Positions 11,345 through 39,773 of a stretch of 64,000 bases of DNA are shown here, in pieces. The first letter of the stretch is position 1, and every line of letters starts with the position of its first letter. The DNA comes from an uncultured Gammaproteobacteria bacterium (lineage in GTDB: Bacteria > Patescibacteriota > Microgenomatia > Levybacterales > GWA1-39-11): assembly GCA_964640435.1 (NCBI GenBank), contig CAZXFJ010000002.1, forward strand, positions 4,175-68,174, given 5' to 3'. The notes beneath the pieces are model-generated. The model was not told the origin of the DNA, did not search any database, and saw only the letters and a program-made list of their open reading frames with translations. Both the position numbers and the translations under genes were made by a program.

Positions 11345-11357
11345 TCCCAAATTCAGG

Positions 11358-11363
11358 TATAAT
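11358..11363 (+). promoter_or_regulatory. -10 box TATAAT 6 nt upstream of the ATG at 11370 (internal promoter, leaderless configuration)
   Basis: TATAAT at 11358-11363, then ttaatt, then ATG. Confidence 0.35.
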
Positions 11364-11369
11364 TTAATT

Positions 11370-12920
11370 ATGAATTTAAAGAATAAAAAGCTTTTGTTTT
11401 TTGGAAGTGCAATCTTAATAACTGTTCTTTATTTCGCGCTACGTTTATTTCATTTAACCTCACTACCACTTTTTACAGATGAAGCAATCTATATTAGATG
11501 GTCTCAGATTGCTGCACAAGATGCTAACTGGAGATTTATTTCTCTTACTGATGGAAAACAGCCGATGTATGTTTGGATTGCAATGCTACTCTTGAAGATA
11601 TTTAATGATCCACTTTTTGCCGGACGTCTAGTTTCGGTGATCGCTGGTTTTGGAACAGTAATAGGTTTATTTTTCTTAGGAAATGAATTATTCCGTGAGA
11701 AGAAAGAAAAAATATTTTCATTCACACAAAAAACTGTAACTATTGGGTTATTATCGAGCCTGTTTTATGTTATATATCCTTTCGGGTTAGTGTATGACAG
11801 AATGGGTCTTTACGATAGCTTAGTAGGAATGTTTGCTGTTTGGGCTCTTTATCTACTTGTTTTGCTCGTTAGAACCCTGAGGCTCGATGTGGCACTTCTT
11901 GCTGGACTTGTAATCGGTGGTGGGGTTTTAACGAAAACAAATGCATTCTCTTCTATTTATTCTATGCCACTTCTTCTGCTTATTTTTGGTTGGGGTGGAA
12001 AAGGCTTAAAGAATAGGCTTATTAAATTCTTCCTCTTATGTTTAGTTGTTGTAGTTCTTTCAAATGTGATCTACTCAGTATTAAGACTATCTCCATTTTT
12101 CCACATAATTGCACAGAAAAACGCTTTGTTTTTCTATCCAATAGGTGAGTGGATAAAGCATCCATTTACTTATTTATTTAGCAATCTAAGCGCTCTAGTA
12201 AACTGGTTAATGATTTACTTTTCCGTTCCTTTACTTTTGGTCATTGGGTCATTCTTTATCAACAAAAAAGACTTTTTTATAAAGGCAATGTTAGTGCTTT
12301 GGTTCTTGGCACCATTTTCGTTCTTGGCATTTTTTGGAAATACCATTTATCCAAGATTCATATTATTTATGACCTTACCTTTAATTCCGCTCGTTGCTTA
12401 TTCAATCGTTGAGTTGTTTGCGAGATATAAATCAAACATAGTAAGAGGCCTAATATTAATTATTGCTTTTGGCTTCTATATATATTCTGACTTTTTTATA
12501 CTCACGAATTTCGCGGTTGCCCCAATACCAAGAGCTGACAGGATTCAGTATATGAACTCATGGAGTGCCGGAAATGGACTTGCTGAATCAGTTGAGTTCT
12601 TTAAAGAACAATCAAAAGACAAAAAAATATATATCGTTACACAAGGAACATTTGGTCTGATGCCTTTTGGTCTTGAAATGTATTTGGTTGATAACCCAAA
12701 TATCAAAATTAATGCCTTGTGGCCTGTGAATAATACACCACCTGATGAAATAACTGAGATGGCAAAAAAGCTTCCTACTTATGCGATATTTTATCAGCCA
12801 TGTTCTTCGTGTGGAATTAGTGCAGGTAAGTTGCCTCAAGGATGGAACGGAAAACTAATTAATACTTACAGACAAGGAATTTCAGAGGACTACTATAGTA
12901 TTTATCAAATCCTTCCATGA
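11370..12920 (+). CDS. GT-C membrane glycosyltransferase, PMT_2/GT39-GT83 (ArnT/PMT-like)
   Basis: 516 aa, polytopic. First-loop LFTDEAIY... acidic DE motif, and GRLVSVIAGFGTVIGLF, typical of ArnT/PMT-family enzymes. Confidence 0.7.
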   Translation: MNLKNKKLLFFGSAILITVLYFALRLFHLTSLPLFTDEAIYIRWSQIAAQDANWRFISLTDGKQPMYVWIAMLLLKIFNDPLFAGRLVSVIAGFGTVIGLFFLGNELFREKKEKIFSFTQKTVTIGLLSSLFYVIYPFGLVYDRMGLYDSLVGMFAVWALYLLVLLVRTLRLDVALLAGLVIGGGVLTKTNAFSSIYSMPLLLLIFGWGGKGLKNRLIKFFLLCLVVVVLSNVIYSVLRLSPFFHIIAQKNALFFYPIGEWIKHPFTYLFSNLSALVNWLMIYFSVPLLLVIGSFFINKKDFFIKAMLVLWFLAPFSFLAFFGNTIYPRFILFMTLPLIPLVAYSIVELFARYKSNIVRGLILIIAFGFYIYSDFFILTNFAVAPIPRADRIQYMNSWSAGNGLAESVEFFKEQSKDKKIYIVTQGTFGLMPFGLEMYLVDNPNIKINALWPVNNTPPDEITEMAKKLPTYAIFYQPCSSCGISAGKLPQGWNGKLINTYRQGISEDYYSIYQILP

Positions 12921-15313
12921 AGCAAAAAGTAATTATTGTCTTGTTATCCTGCTTCATTGTTTTGGCATTCTTCTATCAATTATTTCAGGGTAAAGTACCG
13001 TTTCCAGGTGACCTACTTGTAAATCAGGAGCCTTATAGATCTGAATCCATCGACGGGTTTGTAGCTGGATCTATTCCTAATAAAGCTCAAGGACCGGATG
13101 TTATTCATGAGCTTCTTCCGTGGAAAAAATTTACTATTGATTCATGGAAAAACTTGCAAATCCCTTTTTGGGATCCTTATAACTTTTCGGGTAATCCATT
13201 AATGGCAAATTATCAAAGTGGCGTTTTTTATCCGGGAAATATAATATTCTTTATTTTAGATTTTTCTGATGCATGGAGTATTTATATCTTTTTAACTCCA
13301 TTCCTTTCAATCCTTTTTACATACCTTTTCTTGAAAAGATTAAAACTGTCGGATGCAGCATCTTTATTTGGTGGCCTTGCTTTTTCGTTCTCTCTTTATA
13401 TGACAGTTTGGATGGAATACGGGAACATAGGGCATACATTTTTATGGCTTCCTCTTATACTTTATTTTACCGATAGATTTGTTGAAAGAAATAATAGAGT
13501 AGCTTTTTTGGGAATTGTATTGTCTTCATTTGCGGCAGCATTAGCTGGATACATTCAAGGCCTTTTCTATATTTATGCAATCACATTTATTTATTTTCTT
13601 TTAAAAAGTAATTCCCTAAAAAAGCCAAACTCACGTAAAATATTCATTTTCATTTCTTCTTTGGCATTACCAATATTTTTAACTGCGTTTCAAATGTTGC
13701 CAACGCTTGAGCTATTTGGTGAGTCAACAAGGGGAAATTATTCCCTGGATCAAATCCAGAAGATGCTTAATCCGCTTTACTATTTGATAACTATAGTTGC
13801 ACCTGATTTTTTTGGAAATCCTGCAAGCAGAAATTTCTGGTTTGATGGTACATATATTGAGAGAGTTTCCTATTTTGGTCTAATACCTTTTGCTTTTGCA
13901 ATACTTGCAATCGTTTCAGTATTTAAACGAGTAGAGGTTAAGGTTTTTTCAATTCTATTTATTTTTTCATTACTTATTTCAACTGATCTTTTCATAACTC
14001 GTTTTTTCTATTTAATACCTATTCCTGTTTTATCAACAACAGTTGCTACAAGAATACTTTCTGTATTTGCTTTTTCAGGTGCGATTCTTGCAGCATTTGG
14101 ATTTGAGCAAGTTTTACAGAGTAAGGATAAGAAGAAAATGTTTATGATTTTTGGATTATTACTTGCAGTAATAATTGTAGCCTTTGTGTTTACTCTTGCT
14201 TACCCAAAGACTTTAAGTGATTTGACAGTAATTTCTCAGCTTGCAACATCAAAGCGTAATTTAATTATTCCTTTAGCGACACTCATTATTTTTGGCGGGT
14301 TAACATTTGTTTTTTATAATTTGAATCTTTTTAAAAAGTATAAAAAGATGATTTACGTATTTGTTATTTTTGCAATAACTTTCGCAGAATTGTTTTATTA
14401 TTTTCAAAAAATTACACCGTTTGCTCCTAAAAATTATATGTACCCAGAAACACCCATTATGTCTTTCCTACAAAAAGATGCGGGTATAAATCGGTTTTGG
14501 GGATATGGTACTGCATATATCGAAAGCAATTTTCAAACTTTTGATAAAACATACTCACCTGAAGGAAATGACCCGCTCCATATAAAAACATATACCGAGC
14601 TTTTATCAGTTAGCAAAGATGGAAAAGTCCCCGCATTACTTCCGAGGCCGGATGCAAATATTGCAAGTGGATATGGTCAGGAAGATCTTTCAAATAACTC
14701 TTATAGACAAAAGATATTAAATATCGTTGGTATTAAGTACGTCCTTAATAGGAGCGAGATTCTAACAGGAGATTATTCTCCCGATACGGTAACTTTCCCA
14801 GAAGAAAAATATAAGCTGGCTTGGCAAAAAGGTCTATGGCAGGCATATGAGAACAAGAATATAACTCAACGAATTTTTATTACAAATAAATATAAAGTTG
14901 TGAATGAAGATAAAGCACTTCAGACTTTATTGAATAAGGACTTTAATGAAAAAGAGACTCTGGTGCTGTATGAAGATCCAAAGATCAAGCAGAGTGATTT
15001 AAAACAAAGTCTAAAAGTTGATTCATATACACCAAATAAAATTACTATTTCAGCAAAAACTTCCTCCGATGCGCTTCTTTATGTGTCAGACAATTATTAT
15101 CCCGGGTGGATTGCAAGTATTGATGGTCAAGACAACAAGATATATTTGGCAAATTATACTTTCCGTGCTGTTGTTGTACCAGCAGGTGACCATAAGGTAG
15201 TTTTTGAATTTAAGCCACAAAGCTTTTATTATGGAATATATATCGCACTTGCCGGTCTAGCGGGACTGGTAATAATGCTTATTATTATTGGTAAAAAAAA
15301 GAATGAAAAGTAA
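12917..15313 (+). CDS. YfhO-family membrane glycosyltransferase (GT-C), paralog 1
   Basis: 798 aa. WDPYNFSGNPLMANYQSGVFYP, the conserved APDFFGNP block and a C-terminal YYPGW motif. Shared with the ORFs at 24050 and 28539. Confidence 0.8.
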   Translation: MKQKVIIVLLSCFIVLAFFYQLFQGKVPFPGDLLVNQEPYRSESIDGFVAGSIPNKAQGPDVIHELLPWKKFTIDSWKNLQIPFWDPYNFSGNPLMANYQSGVFYPGNIIFFILDFSDAWSIYIFLTPFLSILFTYLFLKRLKLSDAASLFGGLAFSFSLYMTVWMEYGNIGHTFLWLPLILYFTDRFVERNNRVAFLGIVLSSFAAALAGYIQGLFYIYAITFIYFLLKSNSLKKPNSRKIFIFISSLALPIFLTAFQMLPTLELFGESTRGNYSLDQIQKMLNPLYYLITIVAPDFFGNPASRNFWFDGTYIERVSYFGLIPFAFAILAIVSVFKRVEVKVFSILFIFSLLISTDLFITRFFYLIPIPVLSTTVATRILSVFAFSGAILAAFGFEQVLQSKDKKKMFMIFGLLLAVIIVAFVFTLAYPKTLSDLTVISQLATSKRNLIIPLATLIIFGGLTFVFYNLNLFKKYKKMIYVFVIFAITFAELFYYFQKITPFAPKNYMYPETPIMSFLQKDAGINRFWGYGTAYIESNFQTFDKTYSPEGNDPLHIKTYTELLSVSKDGKVPALLPRPDANIASGYGQEDLSNNSYRQKILNIVGIKYVLNRSEILTGDYSPDTVTFPEEKYKLAWQKGLWQAYENKNITQRIFITNKYKVVNEDKALQTLLNKDFNEKETLVLYEDPKIKQSDLKQSLKVDSYTPNKITISAKTSSDALLYVSDNYYPGWIASIDGQDNKIYLANYTFRAVVVPAGDHKVVFEFKPQSFYYGIYIALAGLAGLVIMLIIIGKKKNEK

Positions 15314-16859
15314 ATATGTCTTGCTTATTATTTTGATACTTCTTGTTATTCCATCTTTTTGGTTTTTGATAAAACCAGGTTTTATTACAACCGACGATGG
15401 TAATTGGATGATTATCAGATTTTCGGCTTTCTATCAGGCCTTACGTGATGGTCAATTTCCTGTAAGAGTTTTGGATCGTTTAAATTTCGGCTATGGTTAT
15501 CCTGTTACAAACTTCTTATACCCAGGCTTCATGTATTTGGCAGTTCCATTTAAAGCTTTTGGCCTAAGCTTTGTCATGACGATTAAGCTAGTAATAGCTC
15601 TTTGCATGATCGGTTCTGGTGTTTTTATGTATCTTTGGTTGGGCCGACTATACAACAGCGTTTCAGCGTTCTTTGCATCCCTTTTTTACGTTTATGCACC
15701 ATATCATCTTTACGACTTAAGTAGGAGAGGGTCTGTCGGTGAGCTACTTTCATTAGCTGTTTTTCCTTTCACGATGTGGCAAATTGAAAGACAAAGCTTG
15801 TTCTTTTCAGCGATTGGTTTCGCTTTACTTATTATTTCACATAATACACTTGCGATAATGTTTTTGGCATTAATTATTTCGTACGCAGCTGTATCAATCT
15901 ATGCTTCTGAAAATCGTAAATTACTTATGGAGTTTTATTCAAGGTTAATAATTTTTGGACTTGGGATTTCTGCCTTTTTCTGGCTACCAGCCTTATTTGA
16001 ATTACAAAATACAGCTTTTTCTAAAACAAAAATTTCTGACTTCTCCAAATATTTTGCAGACTACAATCTTATTGGATTAACAACTATTTTGATTTTTGTT
16101 GGAACAATTATTGTTTTTATTATAAAGACAAGTTTAATAAAAAAAGAATACAAAACGATTTTAATGCTGACTTTGGGAATTGTTACAGCATTTTTAGCAA
16201 GTAATTTAAGTGAGGTGCTATGGCATGTTCTTCCGGTATCATTTATTCAATTTCCGTTTAGGATGCTTTCAGTAACAATTATTGCAGCATCTTTTGTACT
16301 TGCTTTCTGTCTCTCTCAAGTCGAGATGAGGATAAGAATAGCAGTTGGTATCGTTTTTATTGCTGTGACAATTGTTTTATCTTACAAACTTTTAATTCCA
16401 ACTTCTTTTAATTTAGAACAAGATGGTTTTTATTCCACAAATGAGGCAACGACAACAGTTCTTGATGAATATATGCCAGTTTGGGTTAAGGATAAGCCTT
16501 TGGGACATTTCGAAGAGAAAGTAAAAGTTATTCAAGGAGAAGGTGGAATACAAAATGTTTCCGCTAATTCAAAAAATATTTCATTTAATTTTGTATCAAA
16601 TTCTCCAGCAGTTGTGAGCGTATCAACTATTTATTATCCTGGATGGAAGGCATATGCAAATGGAAAAGAAAAGGCAATATTTTTTGATAACAGGAATGGG
16701 TTGATTGAGTTAAAACTTGAGGGAAGGAATCAAAAGGTAGAATTAAATTTTGGAGAAACTACAATGAGATTACTTGCAGATATTGTTTCTATTCTCTCTC
16801 TTATTTTGCTCTTCACTATAACTTTATACAAACCTGTTTTAAAATATATAAATAAATGA
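15303..16859 (+). CDS. short YfhO-related GT-C-like membrane protein (H-D-G motif family), member 1
   Basis: ATG at 15303 is preferred over the TTG at 15288. N-terminal TDDGNWMIIRF...FPVRVLDRLNFGYGYP motif and C-terminal YYPGWKAY. Confidence 0.6.
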   Translation: MKSKYVLLIILILLVIPSFWFLIKPGFITTDDGNWMIIRFSAFYQALRDGQFPVRVLDRLNFGYGYPVTNFLYPGFMYLAVPFKAFGLSFVMTIKLVIALCMIGSGVFMYLWLGRLYNSVSAFFASLFYVYAPYHLYDLSRRGSVGELLSLAVFPFTMWQIERQSLFFSAIGFALLIISHNTLAIMFLALIISYAAVSIYASENRKLLMEFYSRLIIFGLGISAFFWLPALFELQNTAFSKTKISDFSKYFADYNLIGLTTILIFVGTIIVFIIKTSLIKKEYKTILMLTLGIVTAFLASNLSEVLWHVLPVSFIQFPFRMLSVTIIAASFVLAFCLSQVEMRIRIAVGIVFIAVTIVLSYKLLIPTSFNLEQDGFYSTNEATTTVLDEYMPVWVKDKPLGHFEEKVKVIQGEGGIQNVSANSKNISFNFVSNSPAVVSVSTIYYPGWKAYANGKEKAIFFDNRNGLIELKLEGRNQKVELNFGETTMRLLADIVSILSLILLFTITLYKPVLKYINK

Positions 16860-18388
16860 AAAAAATTCTAACAAATAACTGGGCACTTATTGGCTTTTTT
16901 TTAATCTCAATTTTTTCTGTTTTACCATTTTTTCAAAGTGGCTTTTTTCAGATTCATGATGATGTTCAGGTCGCACGAGTCTATGAGATGGGAAAAAGTC
17001 TTTCTTTAGGAATGTTTCCTGTGAGATGGGTTATAGATCTTGGATATGGGTTTGGATACCCTATTTTTAATTTCTATTCGGTCCTACCATATTATTTAGG
17101 TGGTACATTAACGCTTTTTGGTTTTGATGCGCTTCTAGCTACTAAAATAATTTTTGTGATAGCCATCATTGGATCTGGTATATCCATGTACTATTTGGTT
17201 AATTCTTTTTTTGGTAAAGCTGCAGCACTTACATCTGCGCTTGTTTATCTTTATTTTCCTTACCACGCTGTAAACATTTATGTAAGAGGAGATTTGGCAG
17301 AGCTCTGGGCATATATGTTTTTGCCCTTGGTATTTTTAAGCTTTTTCAAAATTTACCAAGAAAAAAACTTATCAAAAAAATATATTGTTATTGGTGCATT
17401 ATCTATGGCAGCAGTTATTATTTGTCATAATCTATCTGCATTCATGCTTTTTATTTTCCTTGGTATTTTTTCGTTGTTTAGTTTACTAACTGGGACAAAC
17501 AAAAAAAATATATTTACTTCATGTGTACTTGTTTTTGGGTTAGCCTTTATGTTGTCTGCATTTTACGCAGTTCCAGCAACAATTGAGGCAAGTTTAACGA
17601 ATGTTTTAACTCAGGTTGGCGGTGGAGCAGATTTTGCTAAAAACTTTGTATGCATCAGACAGTTATGGGATGGTCCATGGGGATTTGGTGGGTCAGTTGC
17701 AGGATGTGTTGATGGCCTTAGTTTTAAACTTGGAAAATCAAATATTATTTTTGCCGTGATCGCCATTTTACTAGCAATTTTTTACTTCTCAAAATTAAAA
17801 GAGAACAGAGTAATAATTGTGTTTTCAATAGTCTTTTTAATTCTTTCTGTTTTTATGACTTTGCCAATATCAAATTTTATCTGGGAATTACCATTTATGG
17901 ACTTTTTGCAGTACCCTTGGAGATTCTTGAACTTTACGGGGGTATTTATAAGTATTGTAATAGGATCAGGGGTGTGGATTGTTTCTCAGCAATTTGAAAA
18001 GAAAGCTGAATATGTTGCTGTAATAGTAATAATACTTTCCACCTTATTTATAAACGGTAAGCTATTCGTGCCTCAAAGATACCTTGATCGAAGTTCTGAC
18101 TACTATACAAATAAAATGTATCTTAATTGGACAGCTTCAAAGATTTCTGATGAGTATCTTCCTAAAGGTTTTGTAAGACCTACATCTTACGAGCAAATCT
18201 CAAAATACAAACTGAACTATAATAATAGTCTGTATAAGGCTGAGCCTCTTCCAAAACCTCATTTTATGATGAATCAAACATTGGTTCAAAAGGTTTCAAA
18301 TGCGATTTCTCTTATTGGTGTTTTAGGTTTGATTACTGTTATAATAAGTAAATTCGGGAAGAAAGAAAAAAGTTCTAAAAATGGCTAA
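16856..18388 (+). CDS. short YfhO-related GT-C-like membrane protein (H-D-G motif family), member 2
   Basis: IHDDVQVARVYEM...FPVRWVIDLGYGFGYP. 510 aa, polytopic. ATGA overlap with the upstream gene. Confidence 0.6.
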   Translation: MKKILTNNWALIGFFLISIFSVLPFFQSGFFQIHDDVQVARVYEMGKSLSLGMFPVRWVIDLGYGFGYPIFNFYSVLPYYLGGTLTLFGFDALLATKIIFVIAIIGSGISMYYLVNSFFGKAAALTSALVYLYFPYHAVNIYVRGDLAELWAYMFLPLVFLSFFKIYQEKNLSKKYIVIGALSMAAVIICHNLSAFMLFIFLGIFSLFSLLTGTNKKNIFTSCVLVFGLAFMLSAFYAVPATIEASLTNVLTQVGGGADFAKNFVCIRQLWDGPWGFGGSVAGCVDGLSFKLGKSNIIFAVIAILLAIFYFSKLKENRVIIVFSIVFLILSVFMTLPISNFIWELPFMDFLQYPWRFLNFTGVFISIVIGSGVWIVSQQFEKKAEYVAVIVIILSTLFINGKLFVPQRYLDRSSDYYTNKMYLNWTASKISDEYLPKGFVRPTSYEQISKYKLNYNNSLYKAEPLPKPHFMMNQTLVQKVSNAISLIGVLGLITVIISKFGKKEKSSKNG

Positions 18389-19100
18389 AAAATTATCGGA
18401 ATTATCCATATTTTTCCCCTTCTGGAATGAAGAAAACAATATCCAAAAAGTAGTTTTGGATGCTATTCCTGTTGCAGAAAAATCAGCTGATAAGTGGGAG
18501 ATAATAATGGTTGATGATGGATCCAGTGACAGAACAGGTGAAATAGCTGAGGATTTAGTTAAGACAAACAAAAACCTAAAAGCGGTAAGACTCCACCCAA
18601 ACAGGGGGTATGGTGCTGCATTAAGATCGGGGTTTGAACACGCAAAATACAAATATGTTGTGTTTACTGATGGCGATCTCCAGTTTGATTTCTCAGAGCT
18701 AGATAGATTTATAGAAAAGATTGATGAAGCAGATATAGTTATAGGTTACAGAAAGACAAGGCGTGACGAGAAGATCTTTAAAAGATTGCTTCTCATGAAT
18801 CTCTTAAAAATTTGGGATTTCATTCTTTTTGGTTTCCATTTTAAGGATATAGATTGCGGATTTAAAATGTTCAAGCGTGAAGCTGTGAAGGAGTTAATGC
18901 CTCTTAGATCAGAAGGCGCTATGATAACAACTGAGATTTTGGCAAAAGCAAAAAAGAAAAAGCTAAAGATAGTTCAGGTTGGAGTTGAGCATTATCCACG
19001 CCAGCATGGAGTTCAAACAGGAGCAAACCTCTTTGTAATCATCAGGGCAGTTCTCGAAAGCCTTATACTCTGGTCTGATATTCACAATGGTCGAGTATAG
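18381..19100 (+). CDS. GT2 polyprenyl-phosphate sugar synthase (DPM1/GtrB-like)
   Basis: MVDDGSSDRT, NRGYGAALRSG, FTDGDLQFD and DIDCGFKMF. 239 aa. Confidence 0.85.
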   Translation: MAKKLSELSIFFPFWNEENNIQKVVLDAIPVAEKSADKWEIIMVDDGSSDRTGEIAEDLVKTNKNLKAVRLHPNRGYGAALRSGFEHAKYKYVVFTDGDLQFDFSELDRFIEKIDEADIVIGYRKTRRDEKIFKRLLLMNLLKIWDFILFGFHFKDIDCGFKMFKREAVKELMPLRSEGAMITTEILAKAKKKKLKIVQVGVEHYPRQHGVQTGANLFVIIRAVLESLILWSDIHNGRV

Positions 19101-19103
19101 TTT

Positions 19104-21485: not shown

Positions 21486-21486
21486 T

Positions 21487-22398: not shown

Positions 22399-22400
22399 AA

Positions 22401-24053: not shown

Positions 24054-26374
24054 AAAAAATACTTTTAGCTTTTTGGCCTGTTATTTTTATTTTCTTTATT
24101 TGGGGAATATTTGCATCACCCTATTTTTTAAAAAATGAAGTTCCTTTCCCATCAACATATTTAGTAACTAACTTTGGCCCATGGAATAACTATGTTGGAT
24201 ATTTAGGTCCTGTCAAAAATAGTGCAACACCTGATGTAATAAGTCAGATATTTCCGTGGAAAAATCTGGTGATAGAATCTTGGAAGAGTGGACAGGTACC
24301 TTTATGGAATACATATGTATTTTCGGGTACACCTCTTCTTGCTAACTATCAGTCAGCCGCATTAACTCCATCTAACTTGATCTATTTTATTCTTCCTTTT
24401 ATAGATGCATGGAGTCTGCAGGTGCTTTTTCAACCACTGCTTGCCGGACTATTTATGTATTTCTTTGTAAGGTCTTTGAAGCTTTCTCATTCGGCAAGTC
24501 TTATATCATCACTGGCATTTATGTTCTGTGGGTTCATAACAACTTGGGGCCTTTATGGGGCTTTAGGCTATGCAATTCTCTTTCTTCCTTTATCTCTTTT
24601 TGCTTTGGAGAAATTTTATCAAGAGAAAAAATGGTATTACCTAGTTCTTCTAGCACTTACTATTCCTTTATCTTTTTTTGCAGGTCATTTCCAAACAAGT
24701 CTGTATTTCCTTTTGATAGTTGGGGCTTACAGCATTTTCAAGTTAATTCAGGTAAAAGATATTAAAACTTTTTCTTACAGCATTTTCTCAATTATTTTCG
24801 GTTTGCTTCTATGTGCTCCTCAGCTACTCCCGTCGATTGAGTTCTATCAAGAATCTGTAAGAAGTGCGATATTTCAAAAAATTGAAGCAATTCAATGGAC
24901 TTATTTGCCATCTTTTATAGCCCCTGATTTTTTTGGAAATCCTGTTACCGCCAACAATTGGTTCGGACACTATGCTGAATGGAATTCATACATTGGAATA
25001 ATACCTTTTATTTTAGGATTTTACTCTCTACGAAAAAGAAGTATCTATGTCCTATTTTTTGGAATTGTAGCTTTAGTAAGCCTACTATTAGCATTTGATA
25101 CTCCGTTATTAAACTTATTGATAGCATTGAAGATACCAGTACTATCCACGAGTGCTGCGAGTAGGATTATTGTTTTATTTAGTTTATCAATGTCTGTTCT
25201 CGCGGGATTTGGATTTGATAAATTGATGGCTGATTTAGAAAATAAAAAAAATACGCCAATTGTTTCTCTAATTGCCATATTTGCAGTGGTGTTTGGAGTT
25301 ATTTGGTTTTGTTTGATAACGAAGGTGTTTATTGATCCAGAAAAAGTATCCATTTCTCTTTCTAATTTTCGTTTGCCAACAATAATCTTTGCTGTATTTG
25401 CCGCTTCAGTACTGGCAAATAAATTTGTAAAGAATAAAAAAATACTAATTGGGGTAGGAGCATTAATAATCCTTTTAACTGCATTCGATCTTTTAAGATT
25501 TACCACAAAGTGGTATCCATTCGAGTCAAGGGATTATGTCTATCCTAAAATATCTATATCAAATCAGCTGAATTCTATGGCAGGTTACAATAGGGAATTT
25601 GGAAACTTTGACCAACAGGCATCAGAGATGTATAAGATACCAAATCTGGAAGGTTACGATCCACTATATATTCAAAGATATGGAGAATTTCTAGCTGCAG
25701 GGAAAGACGGAAAATATCACACGCCAGAAAGATCTGTTGTTACTTTATCAAAAAACGGGGATTATACCGGAAAAATTTTAAACTTTCTTGGCGTTAAGTA
25801 TATTATTCACAAACTAGCCGATGGACAAAATGTGTGGGCATTTCCGTTTTGGGAGTATCCTGCTGACCAATTTAAGGAGATTTTTAAAGACAATGTGTAT
25901 CAGGTTTTTAATAACGATAAAGTACTTCCTCGTGCATTTATCGTGGGTGATGTAAAAGTTGTCGTAGATAAGCAAGATGCAATTAAAGAATTATTTAAAG
26001 ATAGCTTGGATTTTTCGAAAACAGTAGTATTGGAAGAAAATCCTGGGGATAATATTATAAATGGTGCTACAGGATCAGCATCAATAGTATCATATAGCCC
26101 AAATGAAATAAAAATAGATGTTTTATCGAGTGGTTCAGGAATTTTAATTCTTTCAGATCCTTATTATCCAGGTTGGAAAGCATATGTTGATGAAAAACAG
26201 ACTAAAATCTATCGATCTAATTATGCATTTCGTGGCATAGTAATTCCTGATGGAAAACACGCGGTAGTTTTTCGATATGAGCCTGATAGTTTTAGAAATG
26301 GTTTGATTATTGCTTTTGGTGGAGTTATTGGAATAGTAATATTAAGCTTGTATCTAAAGTTTGGTAAAAAGTAA
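24050..26374 (+). CDS. YfhO-family membrane glycosyltransferase (GT-C), paralog 2
   Basis: 774 aa. WNTYVFSGTPLLANYQSAAL, APDFFGNP and C-terminal YYPGWKAYVDEKQ. Confidence 0.8.
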   Translation: MKKILLAFWPVIFIFFIWGIFASPYFLKNEVPFPSTYLVTNFGPWNNYVGYLGPVKNSATPDVISQIFPWKNLVIESWKSGQVPLWNTYVFSGTPLLANYQSAALTPSNLIYFILPFIDAWSLQVLFQPLLAGLFMYFFVRSLKLSHSASLISSLAFMFCGFITTWGLYGALGYAILFLPLSLFALEKFYQEKKWYYLVLLALTIPLSFFAGHFQTSLYFLLIVGAYSIFKLIQVKDIKTFSYSIFSIIFGLLLCAPQLLPSIEFYQESVRSAIFQKIEAIQWTYLPSFIAPDFFGNPVTANNWFGHYAEWNSYIGIIPFILGFYSLRKRSIYVLFFGIVALVSLLLAFDTPLLNLLIALKIPVLSTSAASRIIVLFSLSMSVLAGFGFDKLMADLENKKNTPIVSLIAIFAVVFGVIWFCLITKVFIDPEKVSISLSNFRLPTIIFAVFAASVLANKFVKNKKILIGVGALIILLTAFDLLRFTTKWYPFESRDYVYPKISISNQLNSMAGYNREFGNFDQQASEMYKIPNLEGYDPLYIQRYGEFLAAGKDGKYHTPERSVVTLSKNGDYTGKILNFLGVKYIIHKLADGQNVWAFPFWEYPADQFKEIFKDNVYQVFNNDKVLPRAFIVGDVKVVVDKQDAIKELFKDSLDFSKTVVLEENPGDNIINGATGSASIVSYSPNEIKIDVLSSGSGILILSDPYYPGWKAYVDEKQTKIYRSNYAFRGIVIPDGKHAVVFRYEPDSFRNGLIIAFGGVIGIVILSLYLKFGKK

Positions 26375-26380
26375 TATAAT
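26375..26380 (+). promoter_or_regulatory. -10 box TATAAT 6 nt upstream of the ATG at 26387 (internal promoter, leaderless configuration)
   Basis: TATAAT at 26375-26380, then ttaaag, then ATG. Confidence 0.35.
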
Positions 26381-26386
26381 TTAAAG

Positions 26387-27151
26387 ATGGATAAAATTTC
26401 AGTTCTTATAATTACAAAAAATGAAGAGGATGTTATAGGTGATTGTATAAAATCAGTTAAAGATTTTGCATCAGAGGTTATAGTTATAGATGGCGGTTCA
26501 ACTGATAATACAATAAAAATAGCTGATAAGCTTGGTGCAAAGGTTATTAAGAATCCATTTAAAAATTTCTCCGATCAGCGAAACTTAGCACTCTCAGCCG
26601 CACATGAAAAATGGATTTTTTATATTGACTCAGATGAGCGAGCAAGCGATGAATTTGCTGCGGAGTTAAAAGAAAAGATTGCATTATTCGATGATCAAGA
26701 TGATGTCGCGGGTTTTTGGGTGGAAAGAAAAACTTTTTATTTAGGTCGCGATTGGCATCTTAAAGATCGGGTTCAAAGGGTTTTTAAAAAGGACAAGTTA
26801 AAAGAATGGCATGGAGTTGTACATGAAACACCAGATGTTAATGGTAAATTATTTGAGATAGCTTCACCAATTCTTCATTATACCCATCGAAATATCGAGC
26901 AAATGTTAGCGAAAACAAATGAATGGTCAGAATATGAGGCAGAATTAAGATTTCGTGCTGGACATCCAAAAATGAGCTGGTGGCGTTTTCCACGAGTAAT
27001 GATCAGTGCCTTCTTTGGATCGTACCTTCTAAATAATGGTTTTAGAAACGGTACAGCGGGATTAATTGAAGCTATATTTCAAAGCTACTCAATGTATATA
27101 ACATATGCAAAGCTTTGGGAACTTCAAAACGGTAGAACTTCAAGTAGATAA
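26387..27151 (+). CDS. GT2 glycosyltransferase (WaaE-like subgroup)
   Basis: ISVLIITKNEEDVI...VIVIDGGSTDNT and DSDE motif. 254 aa. Confidence 0.8.
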   Translation: MDKISVLIITKNEEDVIGDCIKSVKDFASEVIVIDGGSTDNTIKIADKLGAKVIKNPFKNFSDQRNLALSAAHEKWIFYIDSDERASDEFAAELKEKIALFDDQDDVAGFWVERKTFYLGRDWHLKDRVQRVFKKDKLKEWHGVVHETPDVNGKLFEIASPILHYTHRNIEQMLAKTNEWSEYEAELRFRAGHPKMSWWRFPRVMISAFFGSYLLNNGFRNGTAGLIEAIFQSYSMYITYAKLWELQNGRTSSR

Positions 27152-27156
27152 TTTGC

Positions 27157-27390
27157 CTACTTACTTGGCATCCAGGATTTAATTTCTTTTACTGTTAGAG
27201 GTTTTGTAGCGAACTTAAATAAGTATATGATTTCAAGGATGCCAACAGTATTTAATACTAAAATTGCTATAAACCAATTACGTTGTTTAAGATGAGCAGA
27301 TCGCCATAGAGCAAAACCTTTCCACAGAAGAGACCAAATATACAAGATTAAAAAGAGATAGGGTGAATTTAATACAAAGTTACCATCCAT
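27157..27390 (-). CDS. small 2-TM membrane protein of unknown function
   Basis: 77 aa. Two hydrophobic helices flanking WKGFALWRSAHLKQRNW. Only minus-strand gene inside the glycosylation block. Confidence 0.5.
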   Translation of the reverse strand: MDGNFVLNSPYLFLILYIWSLLWKGFALWRSAHLKQRNWFIAILVLNTVGILEIIYLFKFATKPLTVKEIKSWMPSK

Positions 27391-27396
27391 AAGGAC

Positions 27397-27405
27397 AATA
27401 TATCA
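27397..27405 (-). promoter_or_regulatory. extended -10 (TGaTATATT on minus strand) 6 nt upstream of the small-protein ATG; leaderless configuration
   Basis: Plus-strand AATATATCA at 27397-27405 reverse-complements to TGATATATT. Confidence 0.35.
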
Positions 27406-27418
27406 CAATAAACCTTAA

Positions 27419-27460
27419 TTTAACAACTATTTAGGTTGTTATGCAGTACTTTAGTTGTTA
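27419..27460. promoter_or_regulatory. operator-like repeat set between divergent promoters
   Basis: TAACAACTA at 27421-27429 is the exact reverse complement of TAGTTGTTA at 27452-27460. A third near-copy, TAGGTTGTTA, lies at 27432-27441. The distal half-site overlaps the -10 box of the downstream operon. Confidence 0.4.
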
Positions 27461-27464
27461 GAAT
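27456..27464 (+). promoter_or_regulatory. extended -10 (TGtTAGAAT) 8 nt upstream of the ATG at 27473; leaderless configuration
   Basis: TGTTAGAAT at 27456-27464, then taaatatc, then ATG. Confidence 0.35.
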
Positions 27465-27472
27465 TAAATATC

Positions 27473-28534
27473 ATGCGTATTGGAATATTTGACCCATATT
27501 TAGACGATCTTGGGGGTGGAGAAAAATATATGATGACAGTGGCATCATGCTTATCTCAAAATAATGATGTTACGGTATTTTGGAATAGTAAAGAGGATGT
27601 TGATGCTGTTTCAAAGCGATTTTCTTTGGATTTATCCAAAGTTAATGTTTCTGCAAATATTTTTTCACCCCATGTTAGCTTTATTAAGCGAATGATGGTA
27701 TCAAAAAATTATGACGTAATAATATATTTATCAGATGGAAGTGTTCCAACCGTTCTTTCTAGGAAATTATTTCTACACATACAGCAACCACTTACTAATA
27801 TTCATCCCAATATTAAATTGCGCCTTAAAATGAAAAAGGTCAACAAAATATTTGTAAATTCATTCTTTACAAAAGACTTTGTTGATAAGGAGTTCGGAAC
27901 TAATAGCGTTGTGGTATATCCGCCTGTAGAAATACATCATAAAAAAATTAAAAAAGAAAATTTCATATTACATGTTGGAAGGTTCAGGATTAAAGGATTT
28001 ACCAACTTTAAAAAGCAAGACGTTTTAGTTGAGCAATTTAAGAAATTAGAGAAAGACGGGCTTAAGAACTGGAAGCTACTAATGGCTGTTTCTGTAAATC
28101 CTGGTGACGAAGAGTTATTTGAAGAGTTTAGAAAGAGTGCTAATGGGGGCAATATTGAATTTCTTGTTAATAAGACAAACACGGAGCTATGGGAAATATA
28201 TTCTGCCTCAAAAATATATTGGCATGCATCTGGTTTTGGCGAAGATCTAGATAAAAATCCCGAGATGGCTGAGCATTTTGGAATTTCAACTGTTGAAGCA
28301 ATGGGATCAGGTTGTGTTCCTGTTGTTATTAACGCAGGTGGACAAAAAGAAATTGTCGAGGATAATGTTACAGGATTTTTATGGAACACGCTGGAAGAGT
28401 TACGCGAGAAAACACTTTTGCTTACAAATGAGGATAAAATCCGAGAGACCATGGCCGAAGAGGGGATAAAGCGCGCAAAGGATTTTTCAGATAAACGTTT
28501 TTATGAAGATATCGATAATCTGGTAGGAAGATAA
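27473..28534 (+). CDS. GT4 (GT-B) glycosyltransferase
   Basis: EHFGISTVEAMGSGCVPVVINAGGQKEIVEDNVTGFLW matches the GT4 E-x7-E region. ATG at 27473 is preferred over the TTG at 27455. Confidence 0.8.
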   Translation: MRIGIFDPYLDDLGGGEKYMMTVASCLSQNNDVTVFWNSKEDVDAVSKRFSLDLSKVNVSANIFSPHVSFIKRMMVSKNYDVIIYLSDGSVPTVLSRKLFLHIQQPLTNIHPNIKLRLKMKKVNKIFVNSFFTKDFVDKEFGTNSVVVYPPVEIHHKKIKKENFILHVGRFRIKGFTNFKKQDVLVEQFKKLEKDGLKNWKLLMAVSVNPGDEELFEEFRKSANGGNIEFLVNKTNTELWEIYSASKIYWHASGFGEDLDKNPEMAEHFGISTVEAMGSGCVPVVINAGGQKEIVEDNVTGFLWNTLEELREKTLLLTNEDKIRETMAEEGIKRAKDFSDKRFYEDIDNLVGR

Positions 28535-28538
28535 ATGT

Positions 28539-30809
28539 ATGGAATTTATTAAAAGGAATGTTTTTCTAATTGTATTAGTAGTTTTATGTCTAGCGTTTTT
28601 CAATAAGACAATTTTGTCAGGCCTTTTACCAATACCTGCTGATACGATTGTTGGACTGTATTATCCTTTTCGCGACAATTATGTTAAAACAAATCCAAAC
28701 GGATTACCATACAAAAATTTTTTAATAACAGATCCCGTTAGGCAAACCTATCCTTGGAAGAATTTATCTATTAATTTAATTAAGAAAGCGCAACTGCCTT
28801 TATGGAATCCTTATAATTTTTCAGGAACACCGTTACTAGCTAATTTCCAATCATCAGTTTTTTATCCATTTAATCTTCTCCTCCTTATCCTGCCATTTTC
28901 CATGGGTTGGGGTACATTAATCATTTTACAGCCTATTTTAGGGGGAATATTCATGTTCTTATACTTGAAGAATTTGAGATTAAAAAATGAATCAAGCTTC
29001 TTGGGTTCAATTGTGTTTTCTTTTAGCGGGTTTTCAATAGCATGGCTTGAATGGGGAACTATATTTCAGACCGCCCTCTGGTTGCCATTAATACTTCTAT
29101 CTGTTGATAAGATTATAAATAGAGAAGAAAAAATAAAAATAAAAGACTTAATAGTTTGGACTACAATATTAACTCTTTCACTTTCCTTTTCATTTTTTGC
29201 AGGTCATCTTCAAACATTCTTTTATATATTTATTATTTCTGTCGCGTATATACTTTTCCGTTCCTTTGAACAAAAAAGTAAATTCAAATCATTACTATTT
29301 TTCATAATCCCATATCTACTATTTGTTTTACTAACTTTTATTCAGTGGTATCCTACATTACAGTTTATTTTACTCTCGGCAAGAGATGCTGACCTTGTTT
29401 CATATAAAACTGTCGGATGGTTTATTCCTCTGCAGAATATTATTCAATTTATCGCACCAGACTTTTTTGGTAATCCATCAACATTAAATTACTTTGGTGA
29501 ATGGAATTATGGTGAGTTTATTGGATATGTTGGCATCATTCCCCTTATATTTGCTTTGTTTGCTATAGCTTTTAATAAAACAAAAGAGACACTTTTTTTC
29601 TTGATAGTACTTTTAATTGCTTTAATTTTTGCTTTTCCAAATCCAGCTTCACAGATCCCCTTTATGCTAAATTTACCTTTTATTTCTACTGCTCAACCTA
29701 CAAGGTTAATATTTTTAGCTGATTTTGCATTAGCAATTCTTGCCGCGGTTGGATTGGAAGAATATCTTAAAAGAAGTCGAAAAATTATTTTTATTCTTCC
29801 TATTTTTATTTTAATTATTGCATGTCTTTGGGGTTTTACTCTAGCTCAAGGATTTGGTTTAGTTACAGCAGAAAATTTACAGGTAATAAAACAAAATTTA
29901 AAACTTCCAACTTTACTTGTATTTGCTTCAGTACTTATTCTTACTCTTCCAGTTATTAAAATTATCAATAAAGAAAAAAAGATATTGACTTTATTAGTAG
30001 TTGCTATTCTAGCAATATCAATATTTGATCTTTTCAGATTTGGTTGGAAATTTGAATCTTTCTCTCCAGCTAGCTATCTTTTTCCCAATACCAAAGTAAT
30101 ATCATATATACAAAACCAGCCTGGTATTTATCGAACAATGTCTACAGACAGTAGAATATTTCCTCCTAATTTTTCTGTTATGTACAATATATATTCTCCA
30201 GACGGTTATGATCCTTTATATCTCAGACGGTACGGTGAATTAATCGCAGCATATGCTCGGAATAAGCCGGATATTGCAACACCTCTTGGTTTTAACAGAA
30301 TAGTTACACTTCAAAATCCTGATTCAAGGATAGTCGATCTTTTAGGAATAAAATATGTTTTATCATTCGATGACCCACAGGTATCAAAACTATCAAAAGT
30401 CTACTCTGACGGAATTGTAAGCGTTTATCAGAATAATAGTGCACTCGAAAGAATATTCTTTGTTCCAACAACTAAGTTTGTGAATACTAATCAGGAAGCC
30501 ATTGCTGAAATGTTTGATATTAACTATTCATTTGACAAAAGAGCAATTGTCCAAGGTATGAGAACCCAAAACTATAAAAATAATTGGGATGTAGGAAAAG
30601 TGAAGATTAATGACTATACTCCCAATAAGGTTAATATAGCCACCAGCAATAAAGGAGATGGATTCCTTGTCTTAACAGACGCCTATTATCCTACATGGAG
30701 TGCAACGATCGATGGAGAGCCAGCTCAAATATTTATAACAGACTATGCATTTAGGGGAATAATTGTGCCAAAGGGTAATCATATAATAGAATTTATTAAT
30801 GGTCTATGA
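28539..30809 (+). CDS. YfhO-family membrane glycosyltransferase (GT-C), paralog 3
   Basis: 756 aa. WNPYNFSGTPLLANFQSSVFYP, APDFFGNP and C-terminal YYPTWSATIDGE. AGGAAG Shine-Dalgarno sequence 9 nt upstream. Confidence 0.8.
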   Translation: MEFIKRNVFLIVLVVLCLAFFNKTILSGLLPIPADTIVGLYYPFRDNYVKTNPNGLPYKNFLITDPVRQTYPWKNLSINLIKKAQLPLWNPYNFSGTPLLANFQSSVFYPFNLLLLILPFSMGWGTLIILQPILGGIFMFLYLKNLRLKNESSFLGSIVFSFSGFSIAWLEWGTIFQTALWLPLILLSVDKIINREEKIKIKDLIVWTTILTLSLSFSFFAGHLQTFFYIFIISVAYILFRSFEQKSKFKSLLFFIIPYLLFVLLTFIQWYPTLQFILLSARDADLVSYKTVGWFIPLQNIIQFIAPDFFGNPSTLNYFGEWNYGEFIGYVGIIPLIFALFAIAFNKTKETLFFLIVLLIALIFAFPNPASQIPFMLNLPFISTAQPTRLIFLADFALAILAAVGLEEYLKRSRKIIFILPIFILIIACLWGFTLAQGFGLVTAENLQVIKQNLKLPTLLVFASVLILTLPVIKIINKEKKILTLLVVAILAISIFDLFRFGWKFESFSPASYLFPNTKVISYIQNQPGIYRTMSTDSRIFPPNFSVMYNIYSPDGYDPLYLRRYGELIAAYARNKPDIATPLGFNRIVTLQNPDSRIVDLLGIKYVLSFDDPQVSKLSKVYSDGIVSVYQNNSALERIFFVPTTKFVNTNQEAIAEMFDINYSFDKRAIVQGMRTQNYKNNWDVGKVKINDYTPNKVNIATSNKGDGFLVLTDAYYPTWSATIDGEPAQIFITDYAFRGIIVPKGNHIIEFINGL

Positions 30810-32453: not shown

Positions 32454-32467
32454 AAAACTTATTTTAT

Positions 32468-32473
32468 TATAAT
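32468..32473 (+). promoter_or_regulatory. -10-like TATAAT 15 nt upstream of the ATG at 32489
   Basis: TATAAT at 32468-32473 in an AT-rich spacer. Confidence 0.25.
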
Positions 32474-32488
32474 AATCGATAACAAAAA

Positions 32489-36066: not shown

Positions 36067-36075
36067 ATCTGATGG

Positions 36076-36084
36076 TGTTATAAT
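36076..36084 (+). promoter_or_regulatory. extended -10 (TGtTATAAT) 6 nt upstream of the ATG at 36091; leaderless configuration
   Basis: TGTTATAAT at 36076-36084, then catcta, then ATG. Confidence 0.4.
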
Positions 36085-36090
36085 CATCTA

Positions 36091-38097: not shown

Positions 38098-38104
38098 AAT
38101 AATA

Positions 38105-38110: not shown

Positions 38111-38118
38111 CTTAAGAA

Positions 38119-39771: not shown

Positions 39772-39773
39772 AC

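What the first reader, a model, noticed from the sequence alone, without database searches (positions are those of the whole stretch)
12917..30809. Three full-length YfhO paralogs in one operon
The ORFs at 12917 (798 aa), 24050 (774 aa) and 28539 (756 aa) share the YfhO hallmarks. These are an N-terminal W-x-P-Y-x-F-S-G-x-P-L-(M/L)-A-N-(Y/F)-Q-S block, a strictly conserved A-P-D-F-F-G-N-P block mid-protein and a C-terminal Y-Y-P-(G/T)-W motif. They are otherwise diverged; no nucleotide-level repeat is visible, so these are old duplications. YfhO enzymes glycosylate lipoteichoic or wall-teichoic-type polymers with C55-P-sugar donors. Three divergent copies imply three distinct sugar or acceptor specificities on one surface polymer.
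Basis: partly seen in the sequence, partly recalled or inferred. Interest (0 to 1): 0.55.

Follow-up and report, generated by a model that had tools for sequence, protein, structure and literature searches.

The report
Three YfhO glycosyltransferase paralogs in Levybacteria
Three old, diverged copies of a membrane sugar-transferase (YfhO family) sit in a very large, conserved cell-surface glycan gene cluster of an ultrasmall Levybacteria (CPR) bacterium; the family call is right and already routine, but nothing links them to teichoic acids.

Summary
ORFs 12917-15313, 24050-26374 and 28539-30809 are full-length paralogs (31-34% identity). All three score above the Pfam YfhO threshold. An AlphaFold model (pLDDT 91.7) matches only GT-C glycosyltransferases (AftD, STT3, ArnT).

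The source is a Levybacteria (Patescibacteria/CPR) genome. Each copy has its own orthogroup. The same gene order recurs in dozens of Levybacteria species, so the duplications are ancient and lineage-wide. Homologues are already annotated "YfhO family protein".

The three genes are a minority in a >54 kb co-directional array. It holds about 19 putative GT-C enzymes, 10 GT2s (four small and soluble, resembling polyprenyl-phosphate-sugar synthases), two Wzx-type flippases, GalE and RmlD.

- The window has no teichoic-acid gene and no GtrA/GtcA flippase.
- A conserved antisense gene splits the "one operon".
- Characterised YfhO enzymes also O-glycosylate proteins, so family membership does not fix the acceptor.

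Most likely the three enzymes transfer sugars from lipid-phosphate donors outside the membrane. The acceptor is probably a rhamnose-containing wall glycan or lipoglycan, or surface proteins.

Verdict: a new member of a known kind, with a partly supported interpretation and modest interest.

The parts
12917..15313 (+). YfhO paralog 1 (798 aa, orthogroup G1). About 13 TM helices, a long first outer loop with invariant D61, a C-terminal beta-rich outer domain and a terminal TM anchor.
   Evidence: Pfam PF09586 89.1 bits. AF2 pLDDT 91.7, pTM 0.92. Foldseek top hits AftD, STT3 and ArnT. Orthologs at 46-65% identity.
24050..26374 (+). YfhO paralog 2 (774 aa, orthogroup G2), with the same architecture as copy 1.
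   Evidence: Pfam PF09586 82.1 bits. Orthologs at 50-62% identity. In many Levybacteria loci it lies about 10-11 kb downstream of a G1 gene.
28539..30809 (+). YfhO paralog 3 (756 aa, orthogroup G3). It lacks the C-terminal TM anchor.
   Evidence: Pfam PF09586 105 bits. Orthologs at 52-66% identity. 0 of 68 G3 proteins have a TM-like tail, against 97-98% in G1 and G2.
9460..10206 (+). Small soluble GT2 (248 aa, no TM). Candidate polyprenyl-phosphate-sugar synthase at the head of the module that contains copy 1.
   Evidence: Pfam GT2. No TM predicted. Sub-threshold NCBIfam similarity to PgfS, ArnC, PpgS and AglJ. Kept upstream of G1 in 59 of 78 loci.
18381..19100 (+). Small soluble GT2 (239 aa), immediately upstream of a Wzx-type flippase.
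19104..20561 (+). Wzx/MOP-type flippase (485 aa, 12 TM).
   Evidence: Pfam Polysacc_synt_3 E 5e-46. NCBIfam MOP flippase 130 bits, below its cutoff.
31740..32453 (+). Small soluble GT2 (237 aa). It follows copy 3 and a 321-aa GT2. This trio is conserved in relatives.
   Evidence: Pfam GT2 E 1.7e-37. Best NCBIfam similarity is to AglJ and dolichyl-phosphate hexose transferase. Synteny in L002 and L003.
53413..54192 (+). Fourth small soluble GT2 (259 aa), next to the second Wzx-like protein (52170-53429).
52170..53429 (+). Second Wzx/MOP-like flippase (419 aa, 11 TM).
   Evidence: Pfam Polysacc_synt_3 E 1.8e-20.
15288..18388 (+). Two PTPS_related (PF10131) GT-C proteins (523 and 510 aa). They are short remote homologues of the YfhO membrane core.
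   Evidence: Pfam. hhalign of the YfhO profile against the PTPS_related profile: probability 97.6%, E 3e-12.
22401..24053 (+). PTPS_related GT-C (550 aa) directly upstream of copy 2. It also shares the C-terminal domain with YfhO.
   Evidence: The custom YfhO HMM hits it at E 2.5e-17, with stretches in both the N-terminal core and the C-terminal domain.
26387..28534 (.). GT2 (26387-27151, +), antisense DUF5652 (27157-27390, -) and GT4 (27455-28534, +). This is the conserved linker between copies 2 and 3.
   Evidence: The same order is seen in L002 and L003.
9460..64000 (+). The whole co-directional envelope-glycan cluster. It holds about 19 putative GT-C proteins (3 YfhO, 4 PTPS_related, 6 PMT_2, 2 MptA/B-like, plus 3-4 unassigned multi-TM ORFs), 10 GT2, 4 GT4, 2 Wzx-like flippases, GalE and RmlD. 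It runs off the window end.

Best explanation
The three ORFs are active, anciently diverged YfhO-family GT-C glycosyltransferases of a Levybacteria (Patescibacteria/CPR) bacterium. They are three of about 19 GT-C enzymes in a lineage-conserved envelope-glycan cluster of more than 54 kb.

Inferred mechanism:
- Small soluble GT2 enzymes (9460, 18381, 31740, 53413) load single sugars onto a polyprenyl phosphate at the inner face of the membrane.
- The adjacent Wzx-type proteins (19104, 52170) flip these lipid-linked sugars. This resembles the S. pyogenes GacI/GacK/GacL scheme.
- Each YfhO paralog then transfers a sugar at the outer face. It uses the invariant Asp (D61) in its first outer loop, and its large C-terminal outer domain (YYPGW motif) handles the acceptor.

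The acceptor is most likely a core, non-teichoic envelope glycoconjugate: a rhamnose/galactose-containing wall polysaccharide or lipoglycan built stepwise outside the membrane. Surface proteins are the main alternative.

Shown here: family membership, fold, conservation of the catalytic residue, orthogroup structure and synteny. Inferred: donor, flippase role, acceptor and the distinct specificity of each copy.
For: - Family and fold. Pfam YfhO is above threshold for all three. The AF2 model has pLDDT 91.7. All 12 Foldseek PDB matches with E <= 0.001 are polyprenyl-phosphate-dependent GT-C enzymes: AftD, STT3/OST and ArnT.
- Catalytic core. D61, R272, E315, R379 and the other core residues are invariant in 71 sequences from all three groups. 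D61 and YYPGW are also kept in Bacteroidota YfhO proteins. The first outer loop is the most conserved region between paralogs (41-45% identity). Group-specific conserved substitutions flank the shared motifs.
- Ancient duplication. There are three clean orthogroups. All three occur on the same contigs in several genomes.
- Conserved cluster. The gene order around copy 1 through copy 2 recurs across dozens of species-level Levybacteria genomes.
- Donor pathway. Four paralogous GT2s of about 240-260 aa have no TM helix. They resemble PgfS, AglJ, ArnC and PpgS. Two of them abut the Wzx-type flippases. No GtrA gene can fit in the window.
- Sugars. GalE and RmlD score above their NCBIfam cutoffs.
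- Precedent. A soluble GT-A plus Wzx-type flippase plus GT-C system is described in PMC8035078. Rhamnose wall polysaccharide has been proposed in place of teichoic acid in Patescibacteria (PMC11809585).
Against: - No biochemical data exist for any CPR YfhO.
- The GT2 assignments are sub-threshold similarities.
- The Wzx-type proteins could instead flip Und-PP-oligosaccharide units.
- No priming phosphoglycosyltransferase, Wzy polymerase, ligase or LCP enzyme was identified in the window, so the acceptor pathway is not defined.
- The best NCBIfam similarities of copies 1 and 2 are to the protein O-glycosyltransferases PgfM1 and PgfM2. These matches are weak and confined to the C-terminal domain.
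- Only 64 kb of the genome was available.
Confidence: 0.65

Rival explanations
1. Protein O-glycosylation. The YfhO paralogs transfer sugars from polyprenyl-phosphate-sugar onto Ser/Thr-rich regions of surface or membrane proteins (S-layer, pilins, adhesins), as S. pyogenes GtrB/PgtC2 and S. mutans PgfS/PgfM1/PgfM2 do.
For: - The only NCBIfam similarities of copies 1 and 2 are to PgfM1 and PgfM2.
- The small GT2s score best, or near best, against PgfS.
- A GalE-type epimerase is in the cluster, as PgfE is in the Pgf operon.
- Six PMT_2 proteins, a family named after protein mannosyltransferases, are in the same cluster.
- YfhO-family protein glycosylation is experimentally shown in streptococci (PMC12041528).
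- Pilin glycosylation has been predicted in Saccharibacteria but remains unexplored (PMC11623550).
Against: - The PgfM matches are tiny (22-29 bits against cutoffs of 1400-1500), cover only the C-terminal domain, and are absent for copy 3.
- No Ser/Thr-rich candidate acceptor gene was identified in the cluster.
- The number of glycosyltransferases (about 19 GT-C plus 14 GT2/GT4) and two flippases is far more than known protein O-glycosylation systems need.
Confidence: 0.22
2. The three enzymes decorate a lipoteichoic or wall teichoic acid polymer with three different sugars or at three positions, as CsbB/GtcA/YfhO do in B. subtilis, S. aureus and L. monocytogenes.
For: - The best-characterised YfhO enzymes glycosylate LTA or WTA (PMC5836110, PMC8035078).
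- All three ORFs are family members.
- CPR bacteria are monoderm-like, with a peptidoglycan wall (PMC11809585).
Against: - No LtaS, TagB/D/F, Tar or LCP family hit appears among the 58 ORFs scanned, and there is no GtrA/GtcA gene.
- The neighbouring GT2s lack the membrane anchor of CsbB/GtrB-type enzymes.
- Family membership does not fix the acceptor (PMC12041528).
- A published genome analysis of a Patescibacterium infers rhamnose wall polysaccharide rather than teichoic acid (PMC11809585).
- My literature searches found no report of teichoic acids in CPR.
Confidence: 0.08
3. One or more copies are redundant or catalytically dead remnants of duplication, not enzymes with distinct roles.
For: - Copy 3 lacks the C-terminal TM anchor.
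- Large paralog arrays often contain decaying copies.
Against: - All three retain every residue that is invariant across the family sample, including D61.
- Each orthogroup is maintained at 50-60% identity across many species, in conserved positions.
- Loss of the TM anchor is uniform across orthogroup 3. It is therefore a fixed design and not decay.
Confidence: 0.05

Closest known systems
CsbB-GtcA-YfhO three-component glycosylation of lipoteichoic acid (B. subtilis, S. aureus) and wall teichoic acid (L. monocytogenes Lmo1079)
   Same: The Pfam family is the same (PF09586). The predicted GT-C architecture and the logic are also the same: a GT2 makes a lipid-phosphate-sugar, a flippase moves it, and a GT-C transfers it outside the membrane (PMC8035078, PMC5836110).
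   Different: - The sequences are distant (82-105 bits to the Pfam model, in two stretches).
- The partner GT2s are soluble and not membrane-anchored.
- There is no GtrA/GtcA flippase and there are no teichoic-acid genes in the window.
- The host is a CPR bacterium.
- There are three paralogs (four in some relatives) and not one.
Streptococcal YfhO-family protein O-glycosyltransferases (S. pyogenes/S. pneumoniae PgtC2; S. mutans PgfM1/PgfM2 with PgfS and PgfE)
   Same: The family is the same. More than one YfhO paralog sits in one cluster (PgfM1 and PgfM2) together with a GT2 and an epimerase. The catalytic acidic motif lies in an outer loop (PMC12041528). There are weak C-terminal NCBIfam matches.
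   Different: The scores are far below the equivalog cutoffs, so these are not orthologs. No acceptor adhesin or Ser/Thr-rich protein is evident in the cluster. The surrounding gene set is much larger.
S. pyogenes GacI/GacJ/GacK/GacL decoration of the rhamnose wall polysaccharide (the 'type b' multi-component system)
   Same: A soluble GT-A sits next to a Wzx-type flippase and a GT-C transferase. A rhamnose pathway gene (RmlD) is in the cluster (PMC8035078).
   Different: GacL is a PMT_2-type GT-C and not a YfhO. No GacJ-like helper was identified, and the 77-aa DUF5652 is an untested candidate. No rhamnan synthesis or ABC-export genes were recognised.
Mycobacterial extracytoplasmic glycan assembly by arrays of GT-C enzymes (MptA/MptB, AftA-D, EmbA-C) fed by polyprenyl-phosphate-mannose or -arabinose (comparison from general knowledge)
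   Same: Many different GT-C enzymes work from a few lipid-phosphate monosaccharide donors. Two MptA/B-like ORFs are in the cluster (L001 gene call PF26314; weak AftD and GT87 hits). AftD is the top structural match of copy 1.
   Different: There is no sequence-level orthology and no evidence for what polymer is made. The YfhO family is not known to take part in chain extension.

Membership tests
YfhO family (Pfam PF09586) | Match to the family HMM above the curated gathering score | tested here: met
   89.1, 82.1 and 105 bits against a 28.5-bit cutoff, with two matched stretches each. Database homologues carry PF09586 and the NCBI name 'YfhO family protein'.
YfhO family (Pfam PF09586) | GT-C fold: N-terminal multi-helix membrane domain with a conserved acidic residue in the first outer loop | tested here: met
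   AF2 pLDDT 91.7. All 12 Foldseek matches with E <= 0.001 are GT-C enzymes. D61 is invariant in 71 sequences and in two Bacteroidota YfhO proteins. The 3D proximity of the conserved residues could not be inspected.
YfhO family (Pfam PF09586) | Large C-terminal extracytoplasmic domain with the YYPGW motif, followed by a terminal TM helix | tested here: met
   The domain and motif are present in all three and in the Bacteroidota members. The terminal TM helix is present in copies 1 and 2 but absent from copy 3 and from its whole orthogroup.
PgfM1 / PgfM2 equivalogs (NCBIfam NF047589 / NF047590) | Score above the equivalog cutoff | tested here: not met
   22-29 bits against cutoffs of 1400-1500. 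Only the C-terminal domain matches, and copy 3 has no hit.
CsbB-GtcA-YfhO teichoic acid glycosylation system | Partner membrane-anchored GT2 of the CsbB/GtrB type | tested here: not met
   The small PgfS/AglJ-like GT2s (9460, 18381, 31740, 53413) have no predicted TM helix. All NCBIfam matches are far below cutoff.
CsbB-GtcA-YfhO teichoic acid glycosylation system | GtrA/GtcA-type small flippase | tested here: not met
   There is no such Pfam hit in the window, and no intergenic gap is longer than 99 bp. The gene could lie elsewhere in the genome, as gtcA does in B. subtilis. That was not testable.
CsbB-GtcA-YfhO teichoic acid glycosylation system | A teichoic acid acceptor: LtaS, TagB/D/F or Tar genes in the genome | not testable with these tools
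   None is present among the 58 ORFs scanned in the window.
GacI/J/K/L-type multi-component glycosylation system | Soluble GT-A adjacent to a Wzx-type flippase, plus a GT-C enzyme | tested here: met
   The pairs are 18381 (GT2) with 19104 (Polysacc_synt_3), and 52170 (Polysacc_synt_3) with 53413 (GT2). GT-C genes flank both.
GacI/J/K/L-type multi-component glycosylation system | Small membrane helper (GacJ) and a rhamnan acceptor | tested here: inconclusive
   RmlD is above its cutoff (232 against 224 bits). No rhamnan polymerase or export genes and no GacJ homologue were recognised. DUF5652 (77 aa, two hydrophobic segments) is untested.

The most novel reading that the evidence does not exclude
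Levybacteria, with genomes under about 1 Mb, devote more than 54 kb to a lineage-conserved extracytoplasmic assembly line. In it about 19 GT-C enzymes, fed by four polyprenyl-phosphate-sugar synthases and Wzx-type flippases, build a core envelope heteroglycan or lipoglycan outside the membrane. This would be a CPR counterpart of mycobacterial arabinogalactan/LAM assembly. The three (or four) YfhO paralogs would then act as chain-building enzymes with fixed, ordered roles and not as optional decorators of teichoic acid.
Probability: 0.3. Interest if true: 0.6.

Novelty: new member of a known kind. Interest (0 to 1): 0.3.

Why it matters
On its own the finding is a correct but routine family call. 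Homologues in Levybacteria MAGs are already labelled YfhO family proteins.

The context is what matters. An ultrasmall, probably symbiotic CPR bacterium keeps a very large, tightly conserved cluster dominated by outward-facing GT-C glycosyltransferases. This suggests an elaborate and so far uncharacterised surface glycan or glycoprotein coat, which could mediate host attachment or phage defence.

The finding also carries a caution. YfhO membership cannot be read as "teichoic acid glycosylation" outside Firmicutes.

Tried and rejected
- A PDB sequence search with the three-paralog profile found nothing at E <= 1. No YfhO structure is available as a reference.
- Promoter and terminator scans gave no more sites than shuffled sequence: fewer promoter-like sites in both stretches, and terminator-like sites below the shuffles in one stretch and within one standard deviation in the other. 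They say nothing about operon boundaries.
- tblastn against plasmids found only C-terminal-domain matches in Bacteroidota and one Microvirga, and none in Firmicutes. A phylogeny with characterised YfhO enzymes was not possible because their sequences could not be fetched.
- I tested whether the unassigned multi-TM ORFs 32489 (644 aa) and 47705 (602 aa) are hidden extra YfhO paralogs. ORF 32489 occupies the slot where relatives carry a fourth YfhO. The custom HMM and hhalign were both negative.
- Literature searches for CPR/Patescibacteria with GT-C, teichoic acid or glycosylation returned nothing direct.
- Recent duplication or assembly artefact is rejected. Nucleotide similarity is limited to short motif patches, and each copy has its own orthologs in other genomes.


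Full report
**Observation.** The three ORFs exist exactly as stated: 12917-15313 (798 aa), 24050-26374 (774 aa) and 28539-30809 (756 aa), all on the + strand.

They align over their full length. Identity is 31-34%, with BLASTP E values of 4e-124, 3e-110 and 2e-113.

The quoted motifs are present:
- APDFFGNP is identical in all three.
- The C-terminal motif reads YYPGW, YYPGW and YYPTW.

At the DNA level only 35-117-nt patches, 70-89% identical, are shared. They lie at motif-coding positions. These are old duplications, not a repeat or an assembly artefact.

**Family membership.** All three exceed the Pfam YfhO (PF09586) gathering score: 89, 82 and 105 bits against 28.5.

An AlphaFold2 model of copy 1, built on a 71-sequence alignment, is confident (pLDDT 91.7, pTM 0.92). 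It shows:
- an N-terminal helical membrane domain;
- a long first outer loop;
- a C-terminal beta-rich domain;
- a terminal TM helix.

All 12 Foldseek matches to the PDB with E <= 0.001 are GT-C glycosyltransferases that use polyprenyl-phosphate-linked donors: AftD, STT3/OST and ArnT. AglB, DPY19 and Emb proteins follow at weaker E values. No YfhO structure exists in the PDB copy by sequence search.

D61 in the first outer loop is invariant across 71 sequences, as are R272, E315, R379 and others.

Comparison with two Bacteroidota proteins annotated as YfhO family (20-21% identity) separates family-wide from subfamily features. D61, the W..F(S/G)G.P core and YYPGW are family-wide. APDFFGNP is specific to this subfamily, and only P...G is shared.

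**Organism and evolutionary status.** Database homologues come from Levybacteria/Levyibacteriota and "Patescibacteria group" MAGs. Many are already named "YfhO family protein". The lineage is Patescibacteria > Microgenomates > Levyibacteriota. The window matches a contig of about 73 kb seen in several runs of one study.

Each paralog has its own set of orthologs at 46-66% identity, with no overlap between the three hit lists. In a neighbour-joining tree of 90 sampled sequences the three groups are reciprocally monophyletic. Identity is about 33% between groups and 50-60% within. One caveat applies: the sample is the top hits of each query.

All three orthologs occur on the same contigs in several genomes, judged by matching contig lengths. 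Two neighbourhoods were read directly.

Across 80 species-level loci the following order recurs: GT2, MptA/B-like, PMT_2, YfhO-1, PTPS_related, PTPS_related, GT2, Wzx, GT2, GT2, (PTPS_related or GT2), YfhO-2. In 59 of 78 loci the upstream trio is kept, and many of the remaining loci are cut by contig ends.

Downstream, the order YfhO-2, GT2, antisense DUF5652, GT4, YfhO-3, GT2, GT2 is identical in two relatives. Those relatives then carry a fourth YfhO where this window has an unrelated 644-aa membrane ORF.

Orthogroup 3 uniformly lacks the C-terminal TM anchor: 0 of 68 proteins, against 97-98% in the other two groups.

**Context.** The three genes are a minority component of a co-directional array that is 99% coding. 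It runs from 9460 to beyond the window end.

| Component | Number | ORF starts or note |
|---|---|---|
| YfhO | 3 | 12917, 24050, 28539 |
| PTPS_related | 4 | remote homologues of the YfhO core (hhalign 97.6%, E 3e-12) |
| PMT_2 | 6 | 11370, 34423, 38119, 39774, 42945, 56945 |
| MptA/B-like | 2 | 10199, 46596 |
| Unassigned multi-TM ORFs | 3 | 32489, 41438, 47705 |
| GT2 | 10 | four are small and soluble |
| GT4 | 4 | 27455, 51127, 54189, 61865 |
| Wzx/MOP-type flippases | 2 | 19104, 52170 |
| GalE, RmlD | 1 each | both above their NCBIfam cutoffs |
| Further sugar-nucleotide enzymes | several | epimerase/dehydratase-family ORFs at 60056 and 61060 |

Together with ORF 36091 (two TM helices, a weak DUF3863 match), these make the roughly 19 putative GT-C proteins.

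Four GT2s of about 240-260 aa (9460, 18381, 31740, 53413) are mutual paralogs without TM helices. They resemble polyprenyl-phosphate-sugar synthases (PgfS, AglJ, ArnC, PpgS), though below the equivalog cutoffs. Two of them directly abut the two Wzx-type genes.

There is no GtrA/GtcA-type flippase and no space for one. No ORF hits a teichoic-acid synthesis family.

The "one operon" is interrupted by a conserved antisense 77-aa DUF5652 gene (27157-27390). Copies 1 and 2 and copy 3 are therefore probably on different transcripts. The promoter and terminator scans were uninformative.

**Mechanism.** The best-supported reading is a multi-component transmembrane glycosylation scheme of the type with a soluble GT-A and a Wzx flippase, as described for S. 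pyogenes GacI/J/K/L (PMC8035078). The steps would be:
1. The small GT2s make polyprenyl-phosphate monosaccharides.
2. Wzx-type proteins flip them.
3. The GT-C enzymes, including the three YfhO paralogs, transfer the sugars at the outer face.

All three copies keep the full set of invariant residues. They differ at positions that are conserved within each orthogroup and lie next to the shared motifs. This fits the same chemistry with different donor or acceptor preference, but that is inference.

The acceptor is unknown. Characterised YfhO enzymes act on several acceptors:
- LTA in B. subtilis and S. aureus (PMC5836110, PMC8035078);
- WTA in L. monocytogenes (PMC5836110, PMC8035078);
- Ser/Thr-rich protein regions, by S. 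pyogenes PgtC2 and S. mutans PgfM1 (PMC12041528).

Family membership therefore does not decide the acceptor.

Three observations favour a core non-teichoic wall glycan or lipoglycan: the lineage-wide conservation of the cluster, the presence of RmlD and GalE, and the number of GT-C enzymes. The published inference that Patescibacteria may use rhamnose wall polysaccharide in place of teichoic acid (PMC11809585) points the same way. Protein O-glycosylation is the main rival, and teichoic acid decoration is the least supported.

**Verdict.** The family assignment is correct but already routine for these genomes. The teichoic-acid interpretation is not supported, and the "three specificities on one polymer" idea remains an untested inference.

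The more notable feature is the conserved array of about 19 GT-C enzymes in a reduced CPR genome. I found no description of it in the searchable literature.

Noticed in passing
window 27157-27390 (- strand): A 77-aa protein with two hydrophobic segments, DUF5652 (Pfam E 4.8e-23). It is the only antisense gene inside the 54-kb glycan array. It is kept at the same position (between the 250-aa GT2 and the GT4) in two other Levybacteria genomes. It might be a small membrane helper of the GacJ kind. This is untested.
   Followed up: partly
window 9460-64000: About 19 putative GT-C membrane glycosyltransferases from at least four Pfam families lie in one co-directional, 99%-coding array. This is a large share of a genome that is probably under 1 Mb. 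The front part of the array is syntenic across dozens of Levybacteria species.
   Followed up: partly
L002 18281-20689; L003 19195-21663 (- strand): Related Levybacteria carry a fourth YfhO paralog (802 and 822 aa, weakly G1-like) after the GT2-GT2 pair that follows copy 3. In this window that slot holds an unrelated 644-aa, 12-TM ORF (32489-34423) with no Pfam or NCBIfam hit.
   Followed up: partly
window 53413-58273: A GT2 (ArnC/PpgS-like), a GT4, a polysaccharide deacetylase, a formyltransferase (ArnA N-terminal-like, 69 bits, below cutoff) and a PMT_2 GT-C lie in a row. This loosely recalls the Arn (aminoarabinose) lipid-sugar modification pathway. No aminotransferase was seen in the window.
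   Followed up: partly
window 36091-38097: A 668-aa ORF with a roughly 500-aa non-membrane N-terminal part and two TM helices near residues 502-545. Its only match is a weak, sub-threshold DUF3863 hit. Its function is unknown, and it is embedded among PMT_2 genes.
   Followed up: no
window 46081-46599: A 172-aa protein with an N-terminal TM helix and a near-threshold DUF5667 match. It lies between GalE and an MptA/B-like GT-C.
   Followed up: no
loci L004, L005, L011 and others: Many TPA MAG records titled 'uncultured Gammaproteobacteria bacterium' carry this Levybacteria-type cluster at 50-65% protein identity. The organism names in those records look like placeholders or mislabels.
   Followed up: no
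window 1-9422: Housekeeping and repair genes lie upstream of the cluster: a split chromate transporter pair (1130-2252, - strand), a UDG-family glycosylase (4199), an AlkZ-like DNA glycosylase (4741), PurK (5795, - strand), a rhodanese/UPF0176 protein (6966, - strand) and an adenylosuccinate-lyase-like gene (7935). The lyase-like gene directly precedes the glycan array on the same strand.
   Followed up: no
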